DNA of 53,524 bases. Origin: Promethearchaeota archaeon (GTDB lineage Archaea; Asgardarchaeota; Lokiarchaeia; Sigyniarchaeales; SOKP01). The stretch is taken from the NCBI GenBank assembly GCA_016840165.1, contig JAEOSU010000012.1, forward strand, positions 1-53,524, in the 5' to 3' direction. The notes beneath the pieces were generated by a model. It saw only the letters and a list, made by a program, of their open reading frames with translations. It was not told the DNA's origin and ran no database searches. Every line of letters begins with the position of its first letter. Position 1 is the first letter of the stretch. This document shows positions 16,301 through 44,872 of the stretch, piece by piece. Both the position numbers and the translations under genes were made by a program.

Positions 16301-16398
16301 ACTCTCTATATCCAATTCAATAAAGGAGTTAAATTAGAAATTGAGGAGAATTAAAATTTCGATTTGAAACCTTATTATCAAACTTTCAAAGTTCAAAT

Positions 16399-17001
16399 CT
16401 AGACCCTTAGCGAGCCACGGAACCCCCTAACGCTATAGAAAGAGGGCGCACTGTTATGATACACGAAGACATGGCCGTAGCGACGATCAGCAAAGATGGC
16501 ACCGCCGAGTTTTCTAATATCAGAAGGAGTTTTCACCCAGCTCGACGTCTTCATATCGAAATTTCCAATTTTCTGCAACTCTCGATATTGTTCTTCCGTT
16601 AAAATCTCAATGCCCATTGCAGCTGCCATATCAATAGCATTACCTTCTGGATGCACCCCTTTCTTTTCCCTCACCTCCTGCCCTTCACGGTCGTAACAAA
16701 CATTTTTGCGGTCTTTAGGAGTTTCCGCTGAACAATCATAAAAAATGTATTCACCCTTTTTTTCATCATGACCTATAACATCCGGTTCACCCCCAGTTCT
16801 TTCCATTTCATTTAGTGTCCATAGTTTTTCTGTATTTGATTCCAGCTTTGCTTGTATCTTAGCCCATTCAAGACCTTTATGGCGATTCATGTTTTTCTCA
16901 AAACGGGCTTTCAATGTTCTGAGTAGTTCCTCATGTTCTTCTTGTGACAAGTCTTTTTTGAATGTAGTAATTGATGGCTTACGCATAATCAAAGTATTCA
17001 T
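16399..17001 (-). CDS. DUF4256-like protein
   Basis: LKARFEKNMNRH...MERTGGEPDV...CYDRE...KTSSWVKTP..IRKLGGA.F.DRRY..VFVYHN.A.S.Y..RGFRGSLRV matches the bacterial family as I recall it. Visibly GC-richer than its flanks. Confidence 0.85.
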   Translation of the reverse strand: MNTLIMRKPSITTFKKDLSQEEHEELLRTLKARFEKNMNRHKGLEWAKIQAKLESNTEKLWTLNEMERTGGEPDVIGHDEKKGEYIFYDCSAETPKDRKNVCYDREGQEVREKKGVHPEGNAIDMAAAMGIEILTEEQYRELQKIGNFDMKTSSWVKTPSDIRKLGGAIFADRRYGHVFVYHNSAPSFYSVRGFRGSLRV

Positions 17002-17054
17002 CCCGAGTTTATAAAATTATTTAAGCATGGAAGGACATTTCCCTTTTATTACCT

Positions 17055-17089
17055 ATCGAATGAAATGTTATTCAATTTCAGGAATAATT
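17055..17089 (+). repeat. Direct repeat copy 2 (35 bp), overlapping the ferredoxin stop codon
   Basis: ATCGAATGAAATGTTATTCAATTTCAGGAATAATT. Confidence 0.85.
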
Positions 17090-17496
17090 GCATTATTTGG
17101 GCAAGTTTTGAAACATTTCAAACATTTGTAACATTCTGAAAGACTGTCTTTTTGAAATGAAATATATTCCTTTCCATCGCTATCTCTCTTTAGTTCAAAG
17201 AGTTTAAGAAAACAGAAGTTGTCCTCCAAACATGCTTTACATAGGCTGCATTTCTCTGGATCAATACTAAATCCCTTGAGTTTTCCCTCTTCAATAGATA
17301 TAACTTCAATCGCTCCATGTTCACACACATCAACACATTTTAAACAACCTTGACATTTATCATAATCCACATACCGAAGGGAATCACGAAAAAATATTGC
17401 TTTTGGAGGACAAGAATAAGAACATTTTTCGCATCGAATGCAAAATTCAGGATTAATACTAATCGGAAATAATTTTTCTTCTTTTATTTCAGGCAT
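17068..17496 (-). CDS. Polyferredoxin (4 x [4Fe-4S] motifs)
   Basis: CIRCEKCSYSCP, CQGCLKCVDVCE, CSLCKAC....C and CYKCLKCFKTCP. Confidence 0.9.
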   Translation of the reverse strand: MPEIKEEKLFPISINPEFCIRCEKCSYSCPPKAIFFRDSLRYVDYDKCQGCLKCVDVCEHGAIEVISIEEGKLKGFSIDPEKCSLCKACLEDNFCFLKLFELKRDSDGKEYISFQKDSLSECYKCLKCFKTCPNNAIIPEIE

Positions 17497-17545
17497 TTCC
17501 TAGCTCCTTGGTGATCATTTAGTAAAAAAAGTTTAGAATAATTAA

Positions 17546-18895
17546 TTAATTTCCATAATCTTCTATAATTTTATAGATTTCATCAATTAATTGTTCCTTA
17601 TTGACTGTGTTCTGTTCTTCGCTAATCATGTTCCTTATAGTTACTTTATTTTTTTCCATTTCATTAGGACCAATAATAAGTGTAATCATGTTGCCAAGTT
17701 CATTAGCTTTCTTTAATTGATTTTTTAAATTACTAAATCGATAATCGACTATACAAGCAAAGTCTTCCTTACGTATCATTTGTGCTATTTCAAGTGCATA
17801 CGCACTAACATTTTTGTTTATTCCAGCAATATATATTGTATCAGAATAATCCATCTCTCGAATGTCTTGAGGAATCAATTTATAAGTATCTAAAAATAAA
17901 GAGAGCATAAATACTCCTAAACCAAATCCCATTCCCGAAATCCTTTCATCTGAAAAAAGTGAAAGCAGATCATCATATCTACCCCCTCCAAAAATACTTC
18001 TGGTATTCTTTGTTCCAGTATCATATACTTCAAAAACAATTCCAGTGTAATAGTCAAGTCCCCTAACAACAGCTGAGGAGAAAGTACAATAATCCAAAAG
18101 ATTGGCTTGTTCTAAGAGGTTTTCAAAATCTCGTAGTTCTTTATAACCCTCAGAATCATAGAAGTTCTTAGGGATATTATCAAATTTTTCTAACAATTCT
18201 TCAATTGAACCTGATTTCTTTAATTTCAGAATACCTTGGGTTATATTCCTATCTTGAAAGATTTCGGAGATGTATTTCTCAAATTCTTTCTCTTCCATTT
18301 TTTCAGCCTTGTCGAGTGCTTTATAGACTACAGGTAATTTCTGTTCTGGAACGTTTAACATCAATAGACAAACCGCATCGATGAATCGCCGGTTATTATA
18401 ATAGATCTGGAATTGTTCTGCTGTTGCTCCAAACTTAGTAAAGATATCAACTACAATATTGAAGATTTCCAAATCTCCGTATAAGCTGTCCTCACCCAAT
18501 ATATCAAAATTTATTTGTTTAAATTGTCTTCGGCGGCCTCTTTGAGGACGTTCGTAGCGAAAACAGGTGGGATTAGAAAACCAACGAATTGGTTTTTTTA
18601 ATTCTTGGCTTTTTTTTGCTATCATTCGAGCTAAACTTGGTGTAAGTTCCGGAATTAGGATTAATCGTTCACCTTGCTTTTTTTCCACGATAAATGACTG
18701 CTCATTTACAAGTTCTTCAGAAGATTTTGCAGCAAAGATTTCAATCGGTTCCAATTGAGGACTTTCAAATTCCTCATAACCATAAACTTCTGCTACATCT
18801 CGAATATTATCAATAATCCAATTTTCTTCTCGAAGGTCTGGGGGATAATAATCTTCCATTCCACGGAGAGGATCTTTTGAAAATTTCTTAGACAT
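17546..18895 (-). CDS. hisS: Histidine--tRNA ligase
   Basis: RGMED, PELT, FRYERPQRGR.RQF.Q, VRGLDYYTG and GGGRYD motifs. Confidence 0.97.
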   Translation of the reverse strand: MSKKFSKDPLRGMEDYYPPDLREENWIIDNIRDVAEVYGYEEFESPQLEPIEIFAAKSSEELVNEQSFIVEKKQGERLILIPELTPSLARMIAKKSQELKKPIRWFSNPTCFRYERPQRGRRRQFKQINFDILGEDSLYGDLEIFNIVVDIFTKFGATAEQFQIYYNNRRFIDAVCLLMLNVPEQKLPVVYKALDKAEKMEEKEFEKYISEIFQDRNITQGILKLKKSGSIEELLEKFDNIPKNFYDSEGYKELRDFENLLEQANLLDYCTFSSAVVRGLDYYTGIVFEVYDTGTKNTRSIFGGGRYDDLLSLFSDERISGMGFGLGVFMLSLFLDTYKLIPQDIREMDYSDTIYIAGINKNVSAYALEIAQMIRKEDFACIVDYRFSNLKNQLKKANELGNMITLIIGPNEMEKNKVTIRNMISEEQNTVNKEQLIDEIYKIIEDYGN

Positions 18896-33180: not shown

Positions 33181-33253
33181 GGCCCGGTTCGTATAGTGGT
33201 TAGTATTGGGGACTGTGAATCCCTAGAGGCGGGTTCAATTCCCGCATCGGGCC
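33181..33253 (+). tRNA. tRNA-His (GTG), intronless, encoded G-1, no encoded CCA
   Basis: Acceptor GCCCGGT/ATCGGGC with G-1:C73, anticodon arm GGGGA-CTGTGAA-TCCCT and T arm GCGGG-TTCAATT-CCCGC. Confidence 0.95.
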
Positions 33254-33393
33254 CTTCTTCTTTTTATTAAAGCCTCCCAGGAAGCAATATCACTACCTAC
33301 TTATGACCTTAAAAGTTTTAAAATTAATTTAAAATCATAAATTAAAAGCATGATGGAGAGTTAAATTAAATATAAAGTAAAAAAAATGATACA

Positions 33394-40871: not shown

Positions 40872-42135
40872 TTAAATCTTTGAAGCTATAAAATCGATTA
40901 TATCAATTACTTTAATCTCTTCTTGAAGCTCTGGATCCATATCATTATATGCATCCAAAAAATTCCCGATGCAGAAAGGACAACTGGTTGTTAATACATC
41001 TGCTCCTGTATCGATTGCTTCCTTTATACGATCTTTGGCAATGTCCAAAGCTAATTCGGAAAATTGACTCTTTACTCCTCCCCCTGCACCACAACACCAC
41101 GCATTATTCCTATTTCTTTTCATTTCGATAAGCTCAACTCCTGGTATTCTTGAAATTATTTCGCGAGGGATTTGATAAAGATTCATATGACGTCCTAAAT
41201 GGCAAGGATCATGATAAGTTACTTTTAATTTTTCTTGTTCTTCCTTAAAAGGTATTTTATTAGATTTTAGTAAATCTACAAGAATTTCAGTAATATGTTT
41301 TACTTCAAACGGTAAATCTTCTCCTAAAAGTTCGGGATAATCCTTCTTTATGGTCCTATAACATCCTGCACAAGCAGAAAATACAGTTTTAGCACCCATT
41401 TCATGGAAGAGGTCTACATTATGCTTTATCAGGTTTTTAACACTTTCTTCATCACCAATACGTAGGGCAATAGAACCACAACACCATTCATTCTTCGATA
41501 TTGCTAAATCTATATGAGTAGCATTTAGAATCTTCATCATATTTTTTAATGTATCAACTTGTCGTAATGGCATTGTACATCCTCCGAAAAAGGCTAAGTC
41601 CGCTTTATCTTTAATGTTCGAAAACACAGATAGCCACTCAAACTTCTTACTCTCATCCTCGCCATAAGGATTTCTCATAGTCTCATCATTCATATAATCA
41701 ATTAACTTGCGATGTTTTTCTAATGGAGCAAATCCTGCTTCTACTAAATCCTTTCTCAGTGCATTCCATACTTCCACATGGTCTATCCACTTGCTTGTTG
41801 GAAGTATTATATAGTCATTTTGACTCATATGACATACTTCAGTGCAGTTACCGCATTCCGAGCATTGGTAGACAAATTCAGCAAGTTCTTTACTTAATGG
41901 AATTTTTCCTTCTAAGATGCTTTTTAACACATTCATGCGGCCTCGAGAAAAATAAATCTCAAACCCATGATCCCCTTTAGCTTCTTTTACAGGACAAGTT
42001 AAATATCTGCCAACTGCAGGTCGAATGGCATAGCCACAATCTCCGCATCCCTTCTGCAGTTCAATAAGAAATTTATGAACTTATACAAGAGAAGATTGCT
42101 TTCCATTCTTTTTTTAAATTTTTAAAATCACTCAT
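40872..42135 (-). CDS. HdrD/GlcF/GlpC-like Fe-S oxidoreductase (2 x [4Fe-4S] plus two CCG domains), 410 aa after splicing; exons 42135-42083 and 42051-40872
   Basis: Spliced N-terminus MSDFKNLKKEWKAIFS-CMGCGDC-GYAIRPAVGRYLTCPV...SRGRMNV...CSECGNCTEVC, then CCG motifs (WCCGS, YHDPCHLGR, CCGAGGG, SCPFC). The track ORF from 41936 lacks the first cluster motif. Confidence 0.88.
42052..42082 (-). other. 31-nt bulge-helix-bulge (tRNA-endonuclease type) intron in a protein-coding gene
   Basis: Intron AAGUUCAUAAAUUUCUUAUUGAACUGCAGAA. Central helix UUGU/GCAG, 3-nt bulges AUA and AAG, intron stem AGUUCA/UGAACU, exon stem GCAAUCUUC/GGAGAUUGU. Confidence 0.8.
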
Positions 42136-42301
42136 AAGAAACTCTCAATATAGTCAAATTAGAAATAAAAAAGTATCTCCTTAGTATAAATTATTCTTAG
42201 AAAATTTAAAGTTAATATATGAGATTTTCGATTAGTGAGAAAAAAAAAGATCAAAAATTAATTGAATATTTTCCACTTTTAAAAATTATGATTTTTTAAA
42301 A

Positions 42302-42607
42302 TTAGAGACATTTCCAAGAATCAGCAATAATATGATATTCCGTATGTTCATAAGCTTTAGAATTTATATCTTTCGAACCTTCTACTTTAATAATCCTGCC
42401 TGTTATTTCTAATATATCATTACAATCGACTTGATTTTTAGAATATACTAATATTTGAAATCCATCCTCTAATTCAAAATAATTAATATGTGGATGAGAT
42501 GTTATTAAGGCTTGAATATGCTGCCAAATGGACTTTGAAATTTTTCCTTTAATACTTATAACTTTTCCTTCATTTTGCTTTAAAAAATCTCTTGTTGCTT
42601 TATACAT
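42302..42607 (-). CDS. Small hypothetical protein, possibly OB-fold
   Basis: 101-aa beta-rich ORF (EGKVISIKGKI...LEITGRI...YHIIADSW). Confidence 0.65.
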   Translation of the reverse strand: MYKATRDFLKQNEGKVISIKGKISKSIWQHIQALITSHPHINYFELEDGFQILVYSKNQVDCNDILEITGRIIKVEGSKDINSKAYEHTEYHIIADSWKCL

Positions 42608-42731
42608 CGTACTAAATCTAGTAATAGCGTTTACTTTTCATTTAGACATGTTTTTGTATCAATAATAGAAGAAATGATTAAAAATTAAAATATCAATATA
42701 TTACTTAGGAACCATAATATAAGTAATTCAG

Positions 42732-43337
42732 ATGTTAAATAGCTATGTACACGCTTTTAGATTGTTAACCATTTGGGGTTTATATTCTTTTGTTTGGTTT
42801 TTAAAATTTCCAAATATAGGTTTTTTGATCCTTACTCTATTTTGTCTTGCATCCGGTGTATTTGGTTGGTTAGGGGATTATCGAAGTAAAAAAAAAAGCT
42901 TAATAATTCGTAACTGGGAAAACGAAACCAGTACAGGAATATTATGTATATTATGCTGGGTCGTTAGTCTTTTTATTCCAATATTTAATAGGGATATTAT
43001 GCTTTTTTTTTTGAAATCAATTAATCCTTTACTAGTTTATGGAGTTTTTACACTAATTATGGTACGATACCATAAACTACCTAAGACTAAAAAGAAAAGA
43101 ATAAACTCACAAGTTGAATCTACAAAGAAGAATTTGGAAACGCACTTCTTAAATTTTGAACGATTAAAAGAAATTCCTAAAATAATAGAAAAGAAAGAAT
43201 TTGAATTAGAGGAAATCAAGAACATGCTTAATCATTCAGATTCTTCAATGAAGGAAAAATTTTTGGAAAAAGAGATAAAAACTCTAAGAAAGGAATTGAA
43301 AGTTATTAAAAAGAAATATAATATTAACAATTTTTAG
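42732..43337 (+). CDS. Hypothetical membrane protein with C-terminal coiled coil
   Basis: About 4 TM segments followed by a K/E-rich tail. Confidence 0.6.
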   Translation: MLNSYVHAFRLLTIWGLYSFVWFLKFPNIGFLILTLFCLASGVFGWLGDYRSKKKSLIIRNWENETSTGILCILCWVVSLFIPIFNRDIMLFFLKSINPLLVYGVFTLIMVRYHKLPKTKKKRINSQVESTKKNLETHFLNFERLKEIPKIIEKKEFELEEIKNMLNHSDSSMKEKFLEKEIKTLRKELKVIKKKYNINNF

Positions 43338-43357: not shown

Positions 43358-44872
43358 TTATTTTCCCCAAAAATTGAATTTACCTTTACTTAAGATCATA
43401 TTTGGATCAAGTGTCTTTTTAATATTAGTCATAAGTTTATAGAATTCTTCATTATAAGCCCCAATATCTACCATTAAACGTGACATAAAATCTCCCATCA
43501 TGTACCACTGGACTCCTTTTTTAGTCACTCGTTCCAATAAAGATTTCCATAATCTTAGATTAACTTCATCGATTTCTGGATGCACTGTCCCATCATATAT
43601 GCTCCAAAAACTAGTAAATCCGCATGTAATTTCCACGTTATTCCCATCAATTAATAGTATGGGTCCACTGCCTGCAATAGGTCTTATTTTAGTAATTTCA
43701 AAAATTTTTTGTATATCTTCGTTGTGTTCCATGTCCCACTGATCGACTGTATCCATGATATCAGGATAATTACGAACCGGAGTAAAACATTCAGCAGTAA
43801 GTGGTTGCATAGTAGGATACATCCCCCATAAATTATGATAGAATTGCCAATGCCCTTGTTCAGTATAATGCCATTTAGCAATATTGCCATCTGCTATTTT
43901 TGAACCTAAATACTCACATTTATTCTCTTCCATAATTTTATCCAATTGGTCTTCTTTCGCTTGTAATTCTTGCTCTGAATTCGCTTCGATAGTATAAAAG
44001 ATGACACCTCTCTTTTTTTTTAGATGTTCAAATAAAGGAAAACATTTTTCTTGAGTGACAACTCGAATAAGAAGATCCATGATATACATAAGATCATAAA
44101 CATCAATTCCTCTGTGGCGTACTTCGGACATAATCTGGGATGAAACTTGGCGTTCTTTTCTAGGTAATTGGAAGGTTTTATAGGCAGCAAACTTGGGTTT
44201 AGGAAAGACTTGTAAGGATATCTTGGTTTTCACTCCATAAATTCCATTATCTCCGCAAAATAATCCCGCTAAATCAGGACCATTTCCAAATCGGTTAAAA
44301 GGAAATTGAGAAAATTTATTTGCTTGAGAACCGGTTTCGATAATCTCGCCAGTGGGTAAGACCACTTCGAGAGAGACGAGTTGGTTTGTACATGCTCCAT
44401 ATTTTGCACAACCTCCTCCTCCAACAGAATGGTGTGAAATACCGCCCCCAATTGAGGCAGTCATACCAGATCCTGGGCCCATACATCCAGTATAGAGCCC
44501 ATAATTACATAAATAATCATTTAATTTAGCCCAAGAAATACCTGCTTCAACGGTGACCACCAGATTATCTTGATCAAGGTTAATTATCCTATTCAATCGT
44601 TTTAAATCCAGTACTATACCCTCATTACCAATGGGTTTACTTCCCCCAAATTCACAATCACCACCACCTCGGGGGATAACGGGGATGTTTTCCTCATTAA
44701 CAACTTTTAAAATTTCTGAAATCTCGATTTCGTCTTTAGGTCTAATAACAATATCAGGAACACCCTGTAAAATAAGGTCAACATTTCTAGAATAGCTGTG
44801 TCTTATAAGGAGATCATTTGAAATATGTTCCTTTTTGACAATTTCTTCTAATTTATGATATACTTCGGGCAT
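43358..44872 (-). CDS. FAD-binding oxidoreductase (GlcD/VAO-PCMH family)
   Basis: P.IVIRP, VIPRGGG, VEAG, SIGG, LEVVLPTGEI, G..G.YG and LDPNMIL..G. Confidence 0.9.
   Translation of the reverse strand: MPEVYHKLEEIVKKEHISNDLLIRHSYSRNVDLILQGVPDIVIRPKDEIEISEILKVVNEENIPVIPRGGGDCEFGGSKPIGNEGIVLDLKRLNRIINLDQDNLVVTVEAGISWAKLNDYLCNYGLYTGCMGPGSGMTASIGGGISHHSVGGGGCAKYGACTNQLVSLEVVLPTGEIIETGSQANKFSQFPFNRFGNGPDLAGLFCGDNGIYGVKTKISLQVFPKPKFAAYKTFQLPRKERQVSSQIMSEVRHRGIDVYDLMYIMDLLIRVVTQEKCFPLFEHLKKKRGVIFYTIEANSEQELQAKEDQLDKIMEENKCEYLGSKIADGNIAKWHYTEQGHWQFYHNLWGMYPTMQPLTAECFTPVRNYPDIMDTVDQWDMEHNEDIQKIFEITKIRPIAGSGPILLIDGNNVEITCGFTSFWSIYDGTVHPEIDEVNLRLWKSLLERVTKKGVQWYMMGDFMSRLMVDIGAYNEEFYKLMTNIKKTLDPNMILSKGKFNFWGK

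What the first reader, a model, noticed from the sequence alone, without database searches (positions are those of the whole stretch)
42030..42135. Bulge-helix-bulge intron inside a protein-coding gene, splitting an Fe-S cluster motif
Seen in sequence: on the minus strand, ATG 42135 reads MSDFKNLKKEWKAIFSC-I-S-S-stop, while a different frame continues GCGDC...TCPV...SRGR into the HdrD/GlcF-like ORF. The RNA between them folds into a canonical BHB. It has a 4-bp central helix UUGU(42088-85)/GCAG(42057-54), 3-nt bulges AUA(42084-82) and AAG(42053-51), an intron stem AGUUCA/UGAACU, and an exon-exon stem (UC/GG plus GCAAUCUUC/GGAGAUUGU). Established: the archaeal splicing endonuclease EndA cuts after the second nucleotide of each bulge. 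Applying that rule removes exactly 31 nt (42082-42052) and gives TGT-ATG-GGA-TGC-GGA-GAT-TGT = CMGCGDC, a complete CxxCxxC motif in a 410-aa frame. BHB introns are standard in archaeal tRNA/rRNA, but the well-established mRNA case is crenarchaeal cbf5. Inference: this is an EndA/RtcB-spliced mRNA intron in a metabolic gene of a probable Asgard archaeon, conceptually akin to eukaryotic non-spliceosomal HAC1/XBP1 splicing. Similar introns may be hidden as frameshifted pseudogenes elsewhere.
Basis: partly seen in the sequence, partly recalled or inferred. Interest (0 to 1): 0.97.

Follow-up and report, generated by a model that had tools for sequence, protein, structure and literature searches.

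The report
tRNA-type intron splitting Asgard enzyme gene
A 31-base intron of the kind archaea normally cut out of tRNAs interrupts the gene for an iron-sulfur enzyme subunit in an Asgard archaeon. Comparison with about 40 related genes shows the gene is under selection and can only be read after its messenger RNA is cut and re-joined, which the papers I could search document for only one other archaeal protein gene.

Summary
On the minus strand, a 17-codon exon from ATG 42135 and a 392-codon frame are separated by 31 nt (42082-42052). This stretch sits in a canonical hBHBh' motif. Cutting after the second base of each bulge gives SCMGCGDC in a 410-aa protein with CCG and Fer4_8 domains.

I compared 42 orthologous loci from Promethearchaeota (Asgard) genomes and metagenomes.
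- 25 are uninterrupted and read SCM(G/N/S)CGDC, or SCIGCGDC in one locus, at exactly this junction.
- 17 carry inserts of 29-61 nt at the same phosphodiester.
- These inserts have different lengths and sequences, but the bulge-helix-bulge geometry is kept.

Both exons are under purifying selection. Exon 2 has dN/dS 0.067, against 0.069 in intronless genes.

The genome encodes a two-subunit EndA, RtcB and archease. Its only EF-2 gene, an ABC ATPase gene and RNase HII carry similar inserts.

The 56-61-nt inserts are two nested BHB introns, as in this genome's own paralog on contig C48.

No RNA data could be obtained, so splicing is inferred and not shown.

In the papers I could search, coding-sequence BHB introns are reported only for crenarchaeal cbf5. 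This scan has already flagged the same phenomenon on other DNA, including this gene family in another genome (e1-5051082).

Verdict: a real intron, a new member of a known kind, and of high interest.

The parts
42083..42135 (-). Exon 1: ATG plus 16 codons (MSDFKNLKKEWKAIFSC) plus the first two bases (AT) of the junction Met codon. It supplies the first Cys of the CxxCxxC cluster motif.
   Evidence: Exon 1 is kept in frame in all 13 intron-bearing orthologs examined, with a per-site nonsynonymous/synonymous ratio of about 0.16. In an intronless ortholog the Fer4_8 match begins at residue 16 and so includes Cys17.
42052..42082 (-). BHB intron of 31 nt. It is not a multiple of 3, and the exon-1 frame runs into TAA at 42075-73.
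   Evidence: It is absent, precisely to the base, from 25 orthologs.
40872..42051 (-). Exon 2: G of the Met codon, 392 codons (GCGDC...) and the stop. It encodes an HdrD/GlcF-like Fe-S subunit with 2 CCG domains.
   Evidence: dN/dS is 0.067 among intron-bearing orthologs.
42085..42088 (-). Central helix H, 5' strand (UUGU, exon 1).
   Evidence: It pairs with 42054-42057. Orthologs show UUGU/GCAG, CUGU/GCAG, UUGC/GCAA, CUGU/GCGG, GUGU/GCGC and GUGU/GCAU.
42054..42057 (-). Central helix H, 3' strand (GCAG, last paired bases of the intron).
42082..42084 (-). Bulge 1 (AUA). The predicted 5' cut lies between 42083 and 42082.
   Evidence: AUA is found in 15 of 15 outer BHBs. The cleavage rule is from PMC2738675.
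42051..42053 (-). Bulge 2 (AAG). The predicted 3' cut lies between 42052 and 42051.
   Evidence: Orthologs have AAG, AUG, AGG or UUG.
42058..42081 (-). Intron hairpin h': a 6-bp stem (42081-76 with 42063-58) and a 12-nt loop.
   Evidence: Stem positions show 3-5 different canonical pair types across orthologs.
42036..42050 (-). 3' strand of the exon-exon helix h: GG 42050-49, a 4-nt bulge, then 9 nt at 42044-36.
   Evidence: The two pairs next to the bulge (C-G, U.G) are invariant in 15 of 15. The 9-bp extension is only partly kept in orthologs.
42089..42099 (-). 5' strand of the exon-exon helix h.
43358..44872 (-). Likely partner gene: a GlcD-like FAD-binding oxidase. In intronless orthologs it ends directly in front of the Fe-S gene.

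Best explanation
The 31 nt at 42082-42052 are a bulge-helix-bulge intron in the pre-mRNA of an HdrD/GlcF-like Fe-S subunit of a Promethearchaeota (Asgard) archaeon.

Proposed mechanism, inferred from the known pathway:
1. The transcript folds so that exon-1 bases UUGU pair with the intron's last paired bases GCAG. This leaves two 3-nt bulges between an exon-exon helix and an intron hairpin.
2. The heterotetramer-type EndA cuts after the second base of each bulge.
3. RtcB, helped by archease, joins the exons.
4. This creates the Met codon AT|G and the motif C-M-G-C-G-D-C in a 410-aa protein. The intron is probably released as a circle.

Without splicing, only a 20-residue peptide can be made from the start codon, and the long frame has no start that includes the first cluster motif. 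Both copies of this gene in the genome carry introns, so the enzyme depends on mRNA splicing.

Shown here: the anatomy, the exact absence of the insert in relatives, structure-preserving variation, selection on both exons, and the presence of the enzymes. Inferred: cleavage and ligation in the cell.
For: 1. Anatomy is exact.

2. Presence and absence at one bond.
- 25 orthologs read SCM(G/N/S)CGDC, or SCIGCGDC in one, without interruption at this very bond.
- 17 orthologs carry inserts of 29, 30, 31, 34, 56, 57 or 61 nt at the same bond.
- The 30-nt inserts are in frame but contain stops.
- Only removal at RNA level fits all these lengths.

3. The homology-defined junction is the top BHB register in 18 of 20 cases, with 8-11 of 11 scored pairs formed.

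4. Covariation.
- Position 1 of H shows 5 canonical pair types.
- h' positions show 3-5 types.
- UUGC/GCAA in L022 turns both wobble pairs of the window's helix into Watson-Crick pairs.

5. Selection.
- Exon 2 dN/dS is 0.067 for intron-bearing genes and 0.069 for intronless genes.
- Exon 1 has a per-site N/S ratio of about 0.16, and its start codon is kept (ATG in 12 of 13, TTG in one).

6. Independent sampling: metagenome contigs L054 and L055, from two different metagenome records, carry the identical intron. This excludes an assembly artefact.

7. Machinery.
- Two EndA subunits of about 200 aa are present. One is closest to the Aeropyrum pernix chain 3p1z_B. The other aligns to the structural repeat.
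- RtcB lies next to archease.
- Asgard EndA is reported as the (alpha-beta)2 type with a broad-specificity loop (PMC5829648).

8. The same genome needs mRNA splicing anyway.
- Its single EF-2 gene has a 30-nt BHB insert with an in-frame TAA.
- An ABC ATPase gene has a 31-nt insert between Walker B and the D-loop.
- RNase HII has a 30-nt insert.
Against: There is no RNA or protein evidence, so splicing is not observed.

The predicted minimum-energy fold of the window's own sequence is not the exact BHB: -18.1 against -12.8 to -13.8 kcal/mol, with a z-score of only -1.9.

The central helix of the window's intron has two G.U pairs. Two orthologous BHB sequences, found in three loci (L006_i1 and its near-duplicate L058_i1; L020), have a mismatch in the central helix.

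BHB-like motifs are common by chance in this AT-rich genome, and my genome-wide ORF-joining screen showed no excess over a mirrored control.
Confidence: 0.88

Rival explanations
1. The gene is a pseudogene, or the insert is an inert insertion scar. Under this reading the BHB-like fold is fortuitous and no full-length protein is made.
For: The unspliced reading frame is broken. BHB-like motifs arise often by chance in this genome. Other CCG-domain paralogs exist that might cover the function.
Against: 392 codons are open in all 17 intron-bearing genes. dN/dS is 0.067, the same as for intact intronless orthologs. The 17-codon exon 1 is conserved in frame with its start codon. The structure is kept through sequence change. 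Both copies in this genome carry introns.
Confidence: 0.04
2. The two frames are joined by the ribosome rather than by RNA splicing, through translational bypassing (as in T4 gene 60) or programmed frameshifting.
For: A stop codon and a hairpin follow the break, which is superficially like a bypass site.
Against: There is no matching take-off and landing codon pair around the gap. Gap lengths of 29-61 nt with several stops cannot be handled by frameshifting. What is conserved is BHB geometry with cuts at the bulges, not codon identity. Precise intronless alleles in close relatives fit loss via spliced RNA or recombination.
Confidence: 0.02
3. The insert is chiefly a selfish, mobile mini-intron that repeatedly targets this one site. 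Splicing merely makes it harmless, and presence or absence reflects invasion and loss rather than any function for the host. This reading is compatible with the best explanation. It differs on why the intron is there.
For: Intron state is scattered on the gene tree, and well-supported branches force at least 5 changes.

Closely related genes with the same exon 1 carry unrelated intron cores. L047 and L013 are 0.69 identical at 4-fold sites. In contrast, L006 and L017 are saturated at 4-fold sites (0.30) yet share 83% of the intron core.

The window's exon 1 plus the 5' part of the intron (42120-42061) is 100% identical to L054, the whole 31-nt intron is identical, and exon 2 is about 82% identical.

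A second intron sits exactly at the 3' splice site of the first in 7 loci.
Against: No homing endonuclease or reverse transcriptase lies beside the gene. The intron sequences are not repeated elsewhere in the genome. Ancient polymorphism with repeated precise loss, as proposed for cbf5 (PMC2738675), could give a similar pattern.
Confidence: 0.3
4. The 31 nt are an assembly or binning artefact.
For: The genome is a 105-contig assembly with 6.3% estimated contamination.
Against: The identical 31 nt occur in two metagenome contigs from two different metagenome records. Homologous inserts occur in more than a dozen other assemblies.
Confidence: 0.01

Closest known systems
BHB intron in the cbf5 (pseudouridine synthase) pre-mRNA of Crenarchaeota (Watanabe 2002; Yoshinari 2006; Yokobori 2009, PMC2738675)
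   Same: It is a short BHB-type intron inside a coding sequence. The cut lies between the 2nd and 3rd bulge residues. The host has a hetero-oligomeric EndA. Distribution among relatives is patchy and is read as gain and loss. Gene callers see it as a frameshift.
   Different: The phylum is different (Asgard/Promethearchaeota) and so is the kind of gene (a redox Fe-S subunit, not an RNA-modification enzyme). The motif here is canonical hBHBh', whereas the cbf5 motifs are mostly relaxed. The intron is polymorphic within one genus and has several unrelated intron cores. Relatives, and this genome's own paralog, carry a second nested intron. Splicing of cbf5 was shown by cDNA; here it was not.
BHB intron in the 5' UTR of HVO_1309 mRNA, Haloferax volcanii (PMC7714728)
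   Same: An mRNA is a substrate of the tRNA splicing endonuclease.
   Different: That intron lies in the UTR and does not interrupt the reading frame. The host has the homodimeric EndA type.
BHB introns of archaeal pre-tRNA and pre-rRNA, including the multi-intron tRNA genes of Asgard archaea (bioRxiv 10.64898/2026.10.13.758758; PMC5829648)
   Same: The motif, the enzymes and the size range are the same. Multiple introns per gene and repeated gains are reported for Asgard tRNAs.
   Different: The substrate here is a protein-coding transcript with no tRNA body. The preprint does not mention mRNA.
Unconventional HAC1/XBP1 mRNA splicing in eukaryotes
   Same: It is non-spliceosomal. A short intron is removed by an endonuclease that leaves a cyclic phosphate, and removal changes the reading frame. 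In metazoa the exons are joined by RtcB (established knowledge; RtcB's role in XBP1 splicing is also stated in the abstract of PMC8718801, listed).
   Different: The endonuclease is Ire1, not the tRNA endonuclease. The recognition element is a pair of stem-loops, not a BHB. Splicing is regulated by ER stress. There is no evidence of regulation here.

Membership tests
Archaeal bulge-helix-bulge (EndA-type) intron | A 4-bp central helix flanked by two 3-nt bulges on opposite strands, with the pre-tRNA polarity (5' exon strand pairs with the 3' end of the intron). | tested here: met
   UUGU/GCAG with bulges AUA and AAG. The polarity was checked against the tRNA 37/38 arrangement by reasoning from established knowledge.
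Archaeal bulge-helix-bulge (EndA-type) intron | Flanking helices h (exon-exon) and h' (within the intron). | tested here: met
   h' has 6 Watson-Crick pairs. h has 2 pairs next to the bulge plus a 9-bp extension after a 4-nt bulge.
Archaeal bulge-helix-bulge (EndA-type) intron | Cutting between the 2nd and 3rd residue of each bulge yields the functional product. | tested here: met
   In silico, the spliced product equals the uninterrupted sequence of 25 orthologs (SCMGCGDC) and is 410 aa like L007.
Archaeal bulge-helix-bulge (EndA-type) intron | The structure, not the sequence, is conserved in homologs (covariation). | tested here: met
   The alignment is position-indexed from the bulges and was made by my own script, not by an independent aligner.
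Archaeal bulge-helix-bulge (EndA-type) intron | The host encodes the splicing endonuclease and the RtcB ligase. | tested here: met
Archaeal bulge-helix-bulge (EndA-type) intron | Cleavage and ligation are observed (spliced RNA, circular intron, in vitro cutting). | not testable with these tools
   No RNA run was listed for this sequence.
(alpha-beta)2 heterotetrameric EndA | Two separate subunit genes of about 180-200 aa, one catalytic and one structural. | tested here: inconclusive
   Two genes of 201 and 205 aa are present, and both have the N- and C-terminal EndA domains. The first is closest to A. pernix 3p1z_B and 3ajv_B. The second aligns to the N-terminal repeat of the fused-type model and weakly to a beta-subunit model. 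The catalytic triad and the L1 loop were not inspected.
HdrD/GlcF-like CCG-domain Fe-S subunit | Two CCG domains preceded by a dicluster ferredoxin-like domain with two CxxCxxC...CP motifs. | tested here: met
   CCG x2 at 5.9e-40. Fer4_8 scores 26.4 bits without exon 1, and 29.0 bits (above the cut-off of 27) in the 410-aa intronless ortholog. No NCBIfam equivalog cut-off is reached; the best is TfrB at 233 bits against a cut-off of 385. The substrate is therefore unknown.

The most novel reading that the evidence does not exclude
This splice site may be a hot spot where BHB mini-introns are gained, swapped and lost faster than the host gene diverges, and where a second intron has been inserted exactly into the 3' splice site of the first. 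The second intron uses the first intron's GCAG or GCGG strand as its own central-helix strand, so it must be removed first. That would point to an RNA-level insertion route: reversal of the EndA/RtcB reaction followed by reverse transcription, or recombination with such products. If so, tRNA-type introns would be a mobile population that colonises protein genes in the closest archaeal relatives of eukaryotes.
Probability: 0.3. Interest if true: 0.9.

Novelty: new member of a known kind. Interest (0 to 1): 0.8.

Why it matters
In the papers I could search, archaeal splicing within a coding sequence rests on one gene (cbf5) in one phylum. A 2020 study still calls it the only coding example (PMC7714728).

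Here a metabolic gene of an Asgard archaeon needs the tRNA-splicing machinery to be read. So do the genome's only EF-2 gene and other genes.

Three consequences follow.
- Gene catalogues of Asgard genomes silently truncate such genes or call them pseudogenes.
- The EndA/RtcB pathway has a general role in mRNA maturation in the lineage nearest to eukaryotes. This bears on the origin of non-spliceosomal mRNA splicing of the HAC1/XBP1 type and on how introns first colonised protein genes.
- The zero/one/two-intron polymorphism at one site gives a natural system in which intron gain, loss and order of removal can be tested.

Tried and rejected
RNA evidence: the look-up of sequencing runs (kind rna) on 41500-42700 listed no RNA holder. 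Read laying therefore could not be used. This says nothing about expression.

Genome-wide screen.
- I scanned G000 for strict BHB motifs (H 4 pairs, h' at least 4, h at least 2, length 18-130).
- I kept those whose removal joins two open frames.
- There was no excess over a mirrored-topology control. Removing intergenic spacers between same-strand genes also joins frames, and AT-rich sequence gives many chance motifs.
- The screen is uninformative and I draw no count of introns from it. One search timed out and was rewritten.

Intron copies: blastn-short of all intron alleles against the genome found no further copies. There is therefore no evidence for a repeated element family.

tRNA introns: aragorn in intron mode on the genome gave 118 calls, 8 of them with introns. 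That is not a reliable census for multi-intron archaeal tRNAs, and I did not use it.

Folding: RNAfold did not return the exact BHB as the minimum-energy structure.

Neighbouring ORFs: Pfam found no homing endonuclease among them.

Literature: six full-text searches found no paper describing BHB introns in Asgard protein genes. Subscription journals are not covered.

Tool error: one search failed on wrong coordinates and was repeated.
Full report
**1. The observation**

On the minus strand, ATG 42135 opens a frame that reads MSDFKNLKKEWKAIFSC-ISS and ends at TAA 42075-73. A second frame runs from 42050 with no stop until the stop codon at 40874-40872, giving 392 aa (P0001). P0001 has two CCG domains (5.9e-40) and a Fer4_8 dicluster domain that starts at profile position 5, so its first cysteine is missing.

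Together they form a legal structure of -12.8 kcal/mol:
- an exon-exon helix, 42090-89 with 42050-49, plus 9 bp after a 4-nt bulge;
- a central helix, UUGU with GCAG;
- bulges AUA and AAG;
- a 6-bp intron stem.

The order along the RNA is h, H, bulge, h', loop, h', H, bulge, h. This is the polarity of the pre-tRNA 37/38 intron. The rule of cutting between the second and third bulge residue is the one used for cbf5 (PMC2738675). Applying it removes 42082-42052 (31 nt), creates the codon AT|G, and gives C-M-G-C-G-D-C in a 17+1+392 = 410-aa protein.

**2. Is it more than chance?**

A BHB-like motif alone is weak evidence in this AT-rich genome. A strict definition found 75,601 motifs, and a mirrored topology that EndA should not recognise found 75,616. 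That is about 9e-5 per fixed position and length.

What matters is that the motif coincides with a junction defined independently by homology. I collected orthologs from same-genus genomes, other public genomes and metagenomes.

25 loci are uninterrupted. They read SCM(G/N/S)CGDC, or SCIGCGDC in one, with the sequence TG(T/C)AT directly followed by G at this bond. One of them, L007, is exactly 410 aa, and its Fer4_8 match rises above the Pfam cut-off and includes Cys17.

17 loci carry an insert at exactly this bond:
- 31 nt in the window, L005, L034, L054 and L055;
- 30 nt in L013, L014 and L020;
- 29 nt in L022 and L043;
- 34 nt in L041;
- 56-57 nt in L006, L058 and L060;
- 61 nt in L017, L047 and this genome's own paralog on contig C48.

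The lengths fall in all three residue classes modulo 3, and the 30-nt inserts contain in-frame stops. No translational reading accommodates all of them.

**3. Structure conservation**

I indexed pairs from the bulges. The homology-defined junction gives 8-11 of 11 scored pairs in all 20 BHBs. In 18 of the 20, none of 168 neighbouring registers scores better.

The central helix varies as UUGU/GCAG, CUGU/GCAG, UUGC/GCAA, CUGU/GCGG, GUGU/GCGC and GUGU/GCAU. Its first pair shows five canonical types, and intron-stem positions show three to five.

Two distinct orthologous sequences have a mismatch at the first pair of the central helix: L006_i1, with its near-duplicate L058_i1, and L020. This is within what broad-specificity EndAs are reported to accept (PMC5829648).

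**4. The gene is under selection**

Among intron-bearing genes, exon 2 has a median dN/dS of 0.067. For intronless genes it is 0.069. Synonymous sites are near saturation.

The 17-codon exon 1 keeps its start codon and frame in all 13 intron-bearing genes examined. Its per-site nonsynonymous/synonymous ratio is about 0.16. So exon 1 is translated in that frame even though it is followed by a stop in the DNA.

An assembly artefact is excluded, because the identical 31 nt occur in two metagenome contigs from two different metagenome records.

**5. The host and its machinery**

Orthologous contigs are titled Promethearchaeota, which is Asgard.

The 3.6-Mb genome encodes:
- two EndA subunits of 201 and 205 aa. 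One is closest to the Aeropyrum pernix chain 3p1z_B. The other aligns to the N-terminal, structural repeat of the fused enzyme and weakly to a beta-subunit model;
- RtcB and an adjacent archease.

This fits the published statement that Asgard archaea have the (alpha-beta)2 enzyme with the broad-specificity L1 insert (PMC5829648). I did not inspect the catalytic residues or the loop.

**6. Other interrupted genes in the same genome**

I followed leads from earlier first-reader notes on this genome and checked three.
- The only EF-2 gene has a 30-nt insert (G000:C1 7920-7949) with an in-frame TAA. It has helix UCAG/CUGA, bulges AUU and AAG, and a 5-bp intron stem. Removal gives ...TDSDDEEQERGITI....
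- An ABC ATPase gene has a 31-nt insert (G000:C98 9899-9929, minus strand) with helix AACU/AGUU. Removal restores ...LFLDEPTTGVD....
- The RNase HII gene has two TAA codons inside its Pfam match. A 30-nt insert (G000:C100 6689-6718) with helix UGGU/GCUA restores GIDEAGR|GPVIGP. The motif is weaker here, at 8 of 11 pairs.

An organism whose sole EF-2 gene is interrupted in this way must splice mRNA. This supports the reading of the window's intron.

More distant CCG paralogs in the genome have uninterrupted CxxCxxC motifs.

**7. Nested introns**

The 56-61-nt inserts resolve into two BHB introns. The first, of 30 nt, ends in GCAG-AA or GCGG-AA like the single introns. The second, of 26-31 nt, begins exactly at that 3' splice site.

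The central helix of the second intron is formed by the same GCAG or GCGG strand pairing with:
- CUGC in L017 and L047;
- CCGC in the own paralog on C48, a compensated change;
- CUGA in L006 and L058, with one mismatch.

Removing the second intron recreates the first BHB, with bulge AAG. Removing the first intron would destroy the second intron's helix. The second intron must therefore go first. This is inference from the pairing alone.

I worked this out from the sequences before seeing that an earlier follow-up in this scan had described nested introns in the same gene family in another genome (e1-5051082).

**8. Evolutionary pattern**

On a maximum-likelihood tree of the 34 genome-derived proteins, the intron state is scattered. 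Well-supported branches force at least five changes. Metagenome contigs, which are not in this tree, show that genes 86-87% identical in protein to the window's gene include both intronless (L056, L057) and intron-bearing (L054, L055) forms.

Intron alleles are decoupled from host divergence.
- L047 and L013 share exon 1 and are 0.69 identical at 4-fold sites, yet their intron cores are unrelated.
- L006 and L017 are saturated at 4-fold sites (0.30), yet they share 83% of the first intron's core.

Between the window and L054, the whole 31-nt intron is identical. The stretch 42120-42061, which covers most of exon 1 and the 5' part of the intron, is 100% identical. The 120 nt upstream are 90% identical and exon 2 is about 82% identical.

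This suggests exchange or repeated insertion of intron alleles at one site. However, no homing endonuclease lies nearby and the introns are not repeated elsewhere in the genome. Ancient polymorphism with repeated precise loss, as argued for cbf5, is not excluded.

**9. What the protein is**

It is a dicluster plus 2xCCG subunit of the HdrD/GlcF/TfrB kind. It lies downstream of a GlcD-like FAD-binding oxidase. No NCBIfam equivalog cut-off is reached, so the substrate is unknown. A 2-hydroxyacid dehydrogenase-type pair is the most likely reading by analogy with GlcDF.

In intronless orthologs the two genes abut. In the window, two small ORFs lie between them.

**10. Comparison with what is known**

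In the papers I could search, the only documented coding-sequence BHB intron is in cbf5 of Crenarchaeota, and a 5'-UTR intron is known in Haloferax. A 2026 preprint on Asgard tRNA introns does not mention mRNA. Six searches found nothing on Asgard protein genes.

The mechanism is therefore of a known kind, and this gene and lineage are a new member of it. This scan has repeatedly flagged the same phenomenon on other DNA. Those notes are unchecked AI notes, and I used them only as leads.

**11. Limits**

No RNA run was listed, so cleavage, ligation, efficiency and any regulation are untested. The window's own BHB is not the predicted minimum-energy fold. My genome-wide screen failed to separate true introns from chance.

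Noticed in passing
G000:C48 16428-16488 (outside the window; paralog gene at about 16374-17668, plus strand): The genome's second copy of this gene (73% identical) carries two nested BHB introns of 30 and 31 nt at the same site. Their central helices are CUGU/GCGG and GCGG/CCGC. Neither copy in the genome is intronless.
   Followed up: yes
G000:C1 7920-7949: The only EF-2 gene of the genome has a 30-nt BHB insert with an in-frame TAA in the switch-I region. Removing it gives ...TDSDDEEQERGITI....
   Followed up: yes
G000:C98 9899-9929 (minus strand): An ABC ATPase gene is split between Walker B and the D-loop by a 31-nt canonical BHB insert (helix AACU/AGUU, bulges ACA and UAA).
   Followed up: yes
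G000:C100 6689-6718: RNase HII is interrupted after GIDEAGR by 30 nt containing two TAA codons. The BHB at the restoring register is weaker, with 8 of 11 pairs.
   Followed up: partly
window 42061-42240 compared with L054/L055: Metagenome contigs share a 100% identical stretch at 42120-42061 (exon 1 plus the 5' part of the intron), an identical 31-nt intron, and a 90% identical upstream region with the window. Exon 2 is only about 82% identical. This could reflect recent exchange of the 5' cassette or unusual constraint.
   Followed up: partly
window 42302-42607 (minus) and 42732-43337 (plus): Two small ORFs lie between the FAD oxidase and the Fe-S gene. One has a weak OB-fold/RPA3-like match and the other has no Pfam match. 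In intronless orthologs the two enzyme genes abut. Their origin is unknown.
   Followed up: partly
G000:C64 11156-12892: RtcB and archease are adjacent on opposite strands, which is the usual ligase and cofactor pairing.
   Followed up: no
window 33182-33254: An intron-free tRNA-His (GUG) is the only RNA family match in the window.
   Followed up: no
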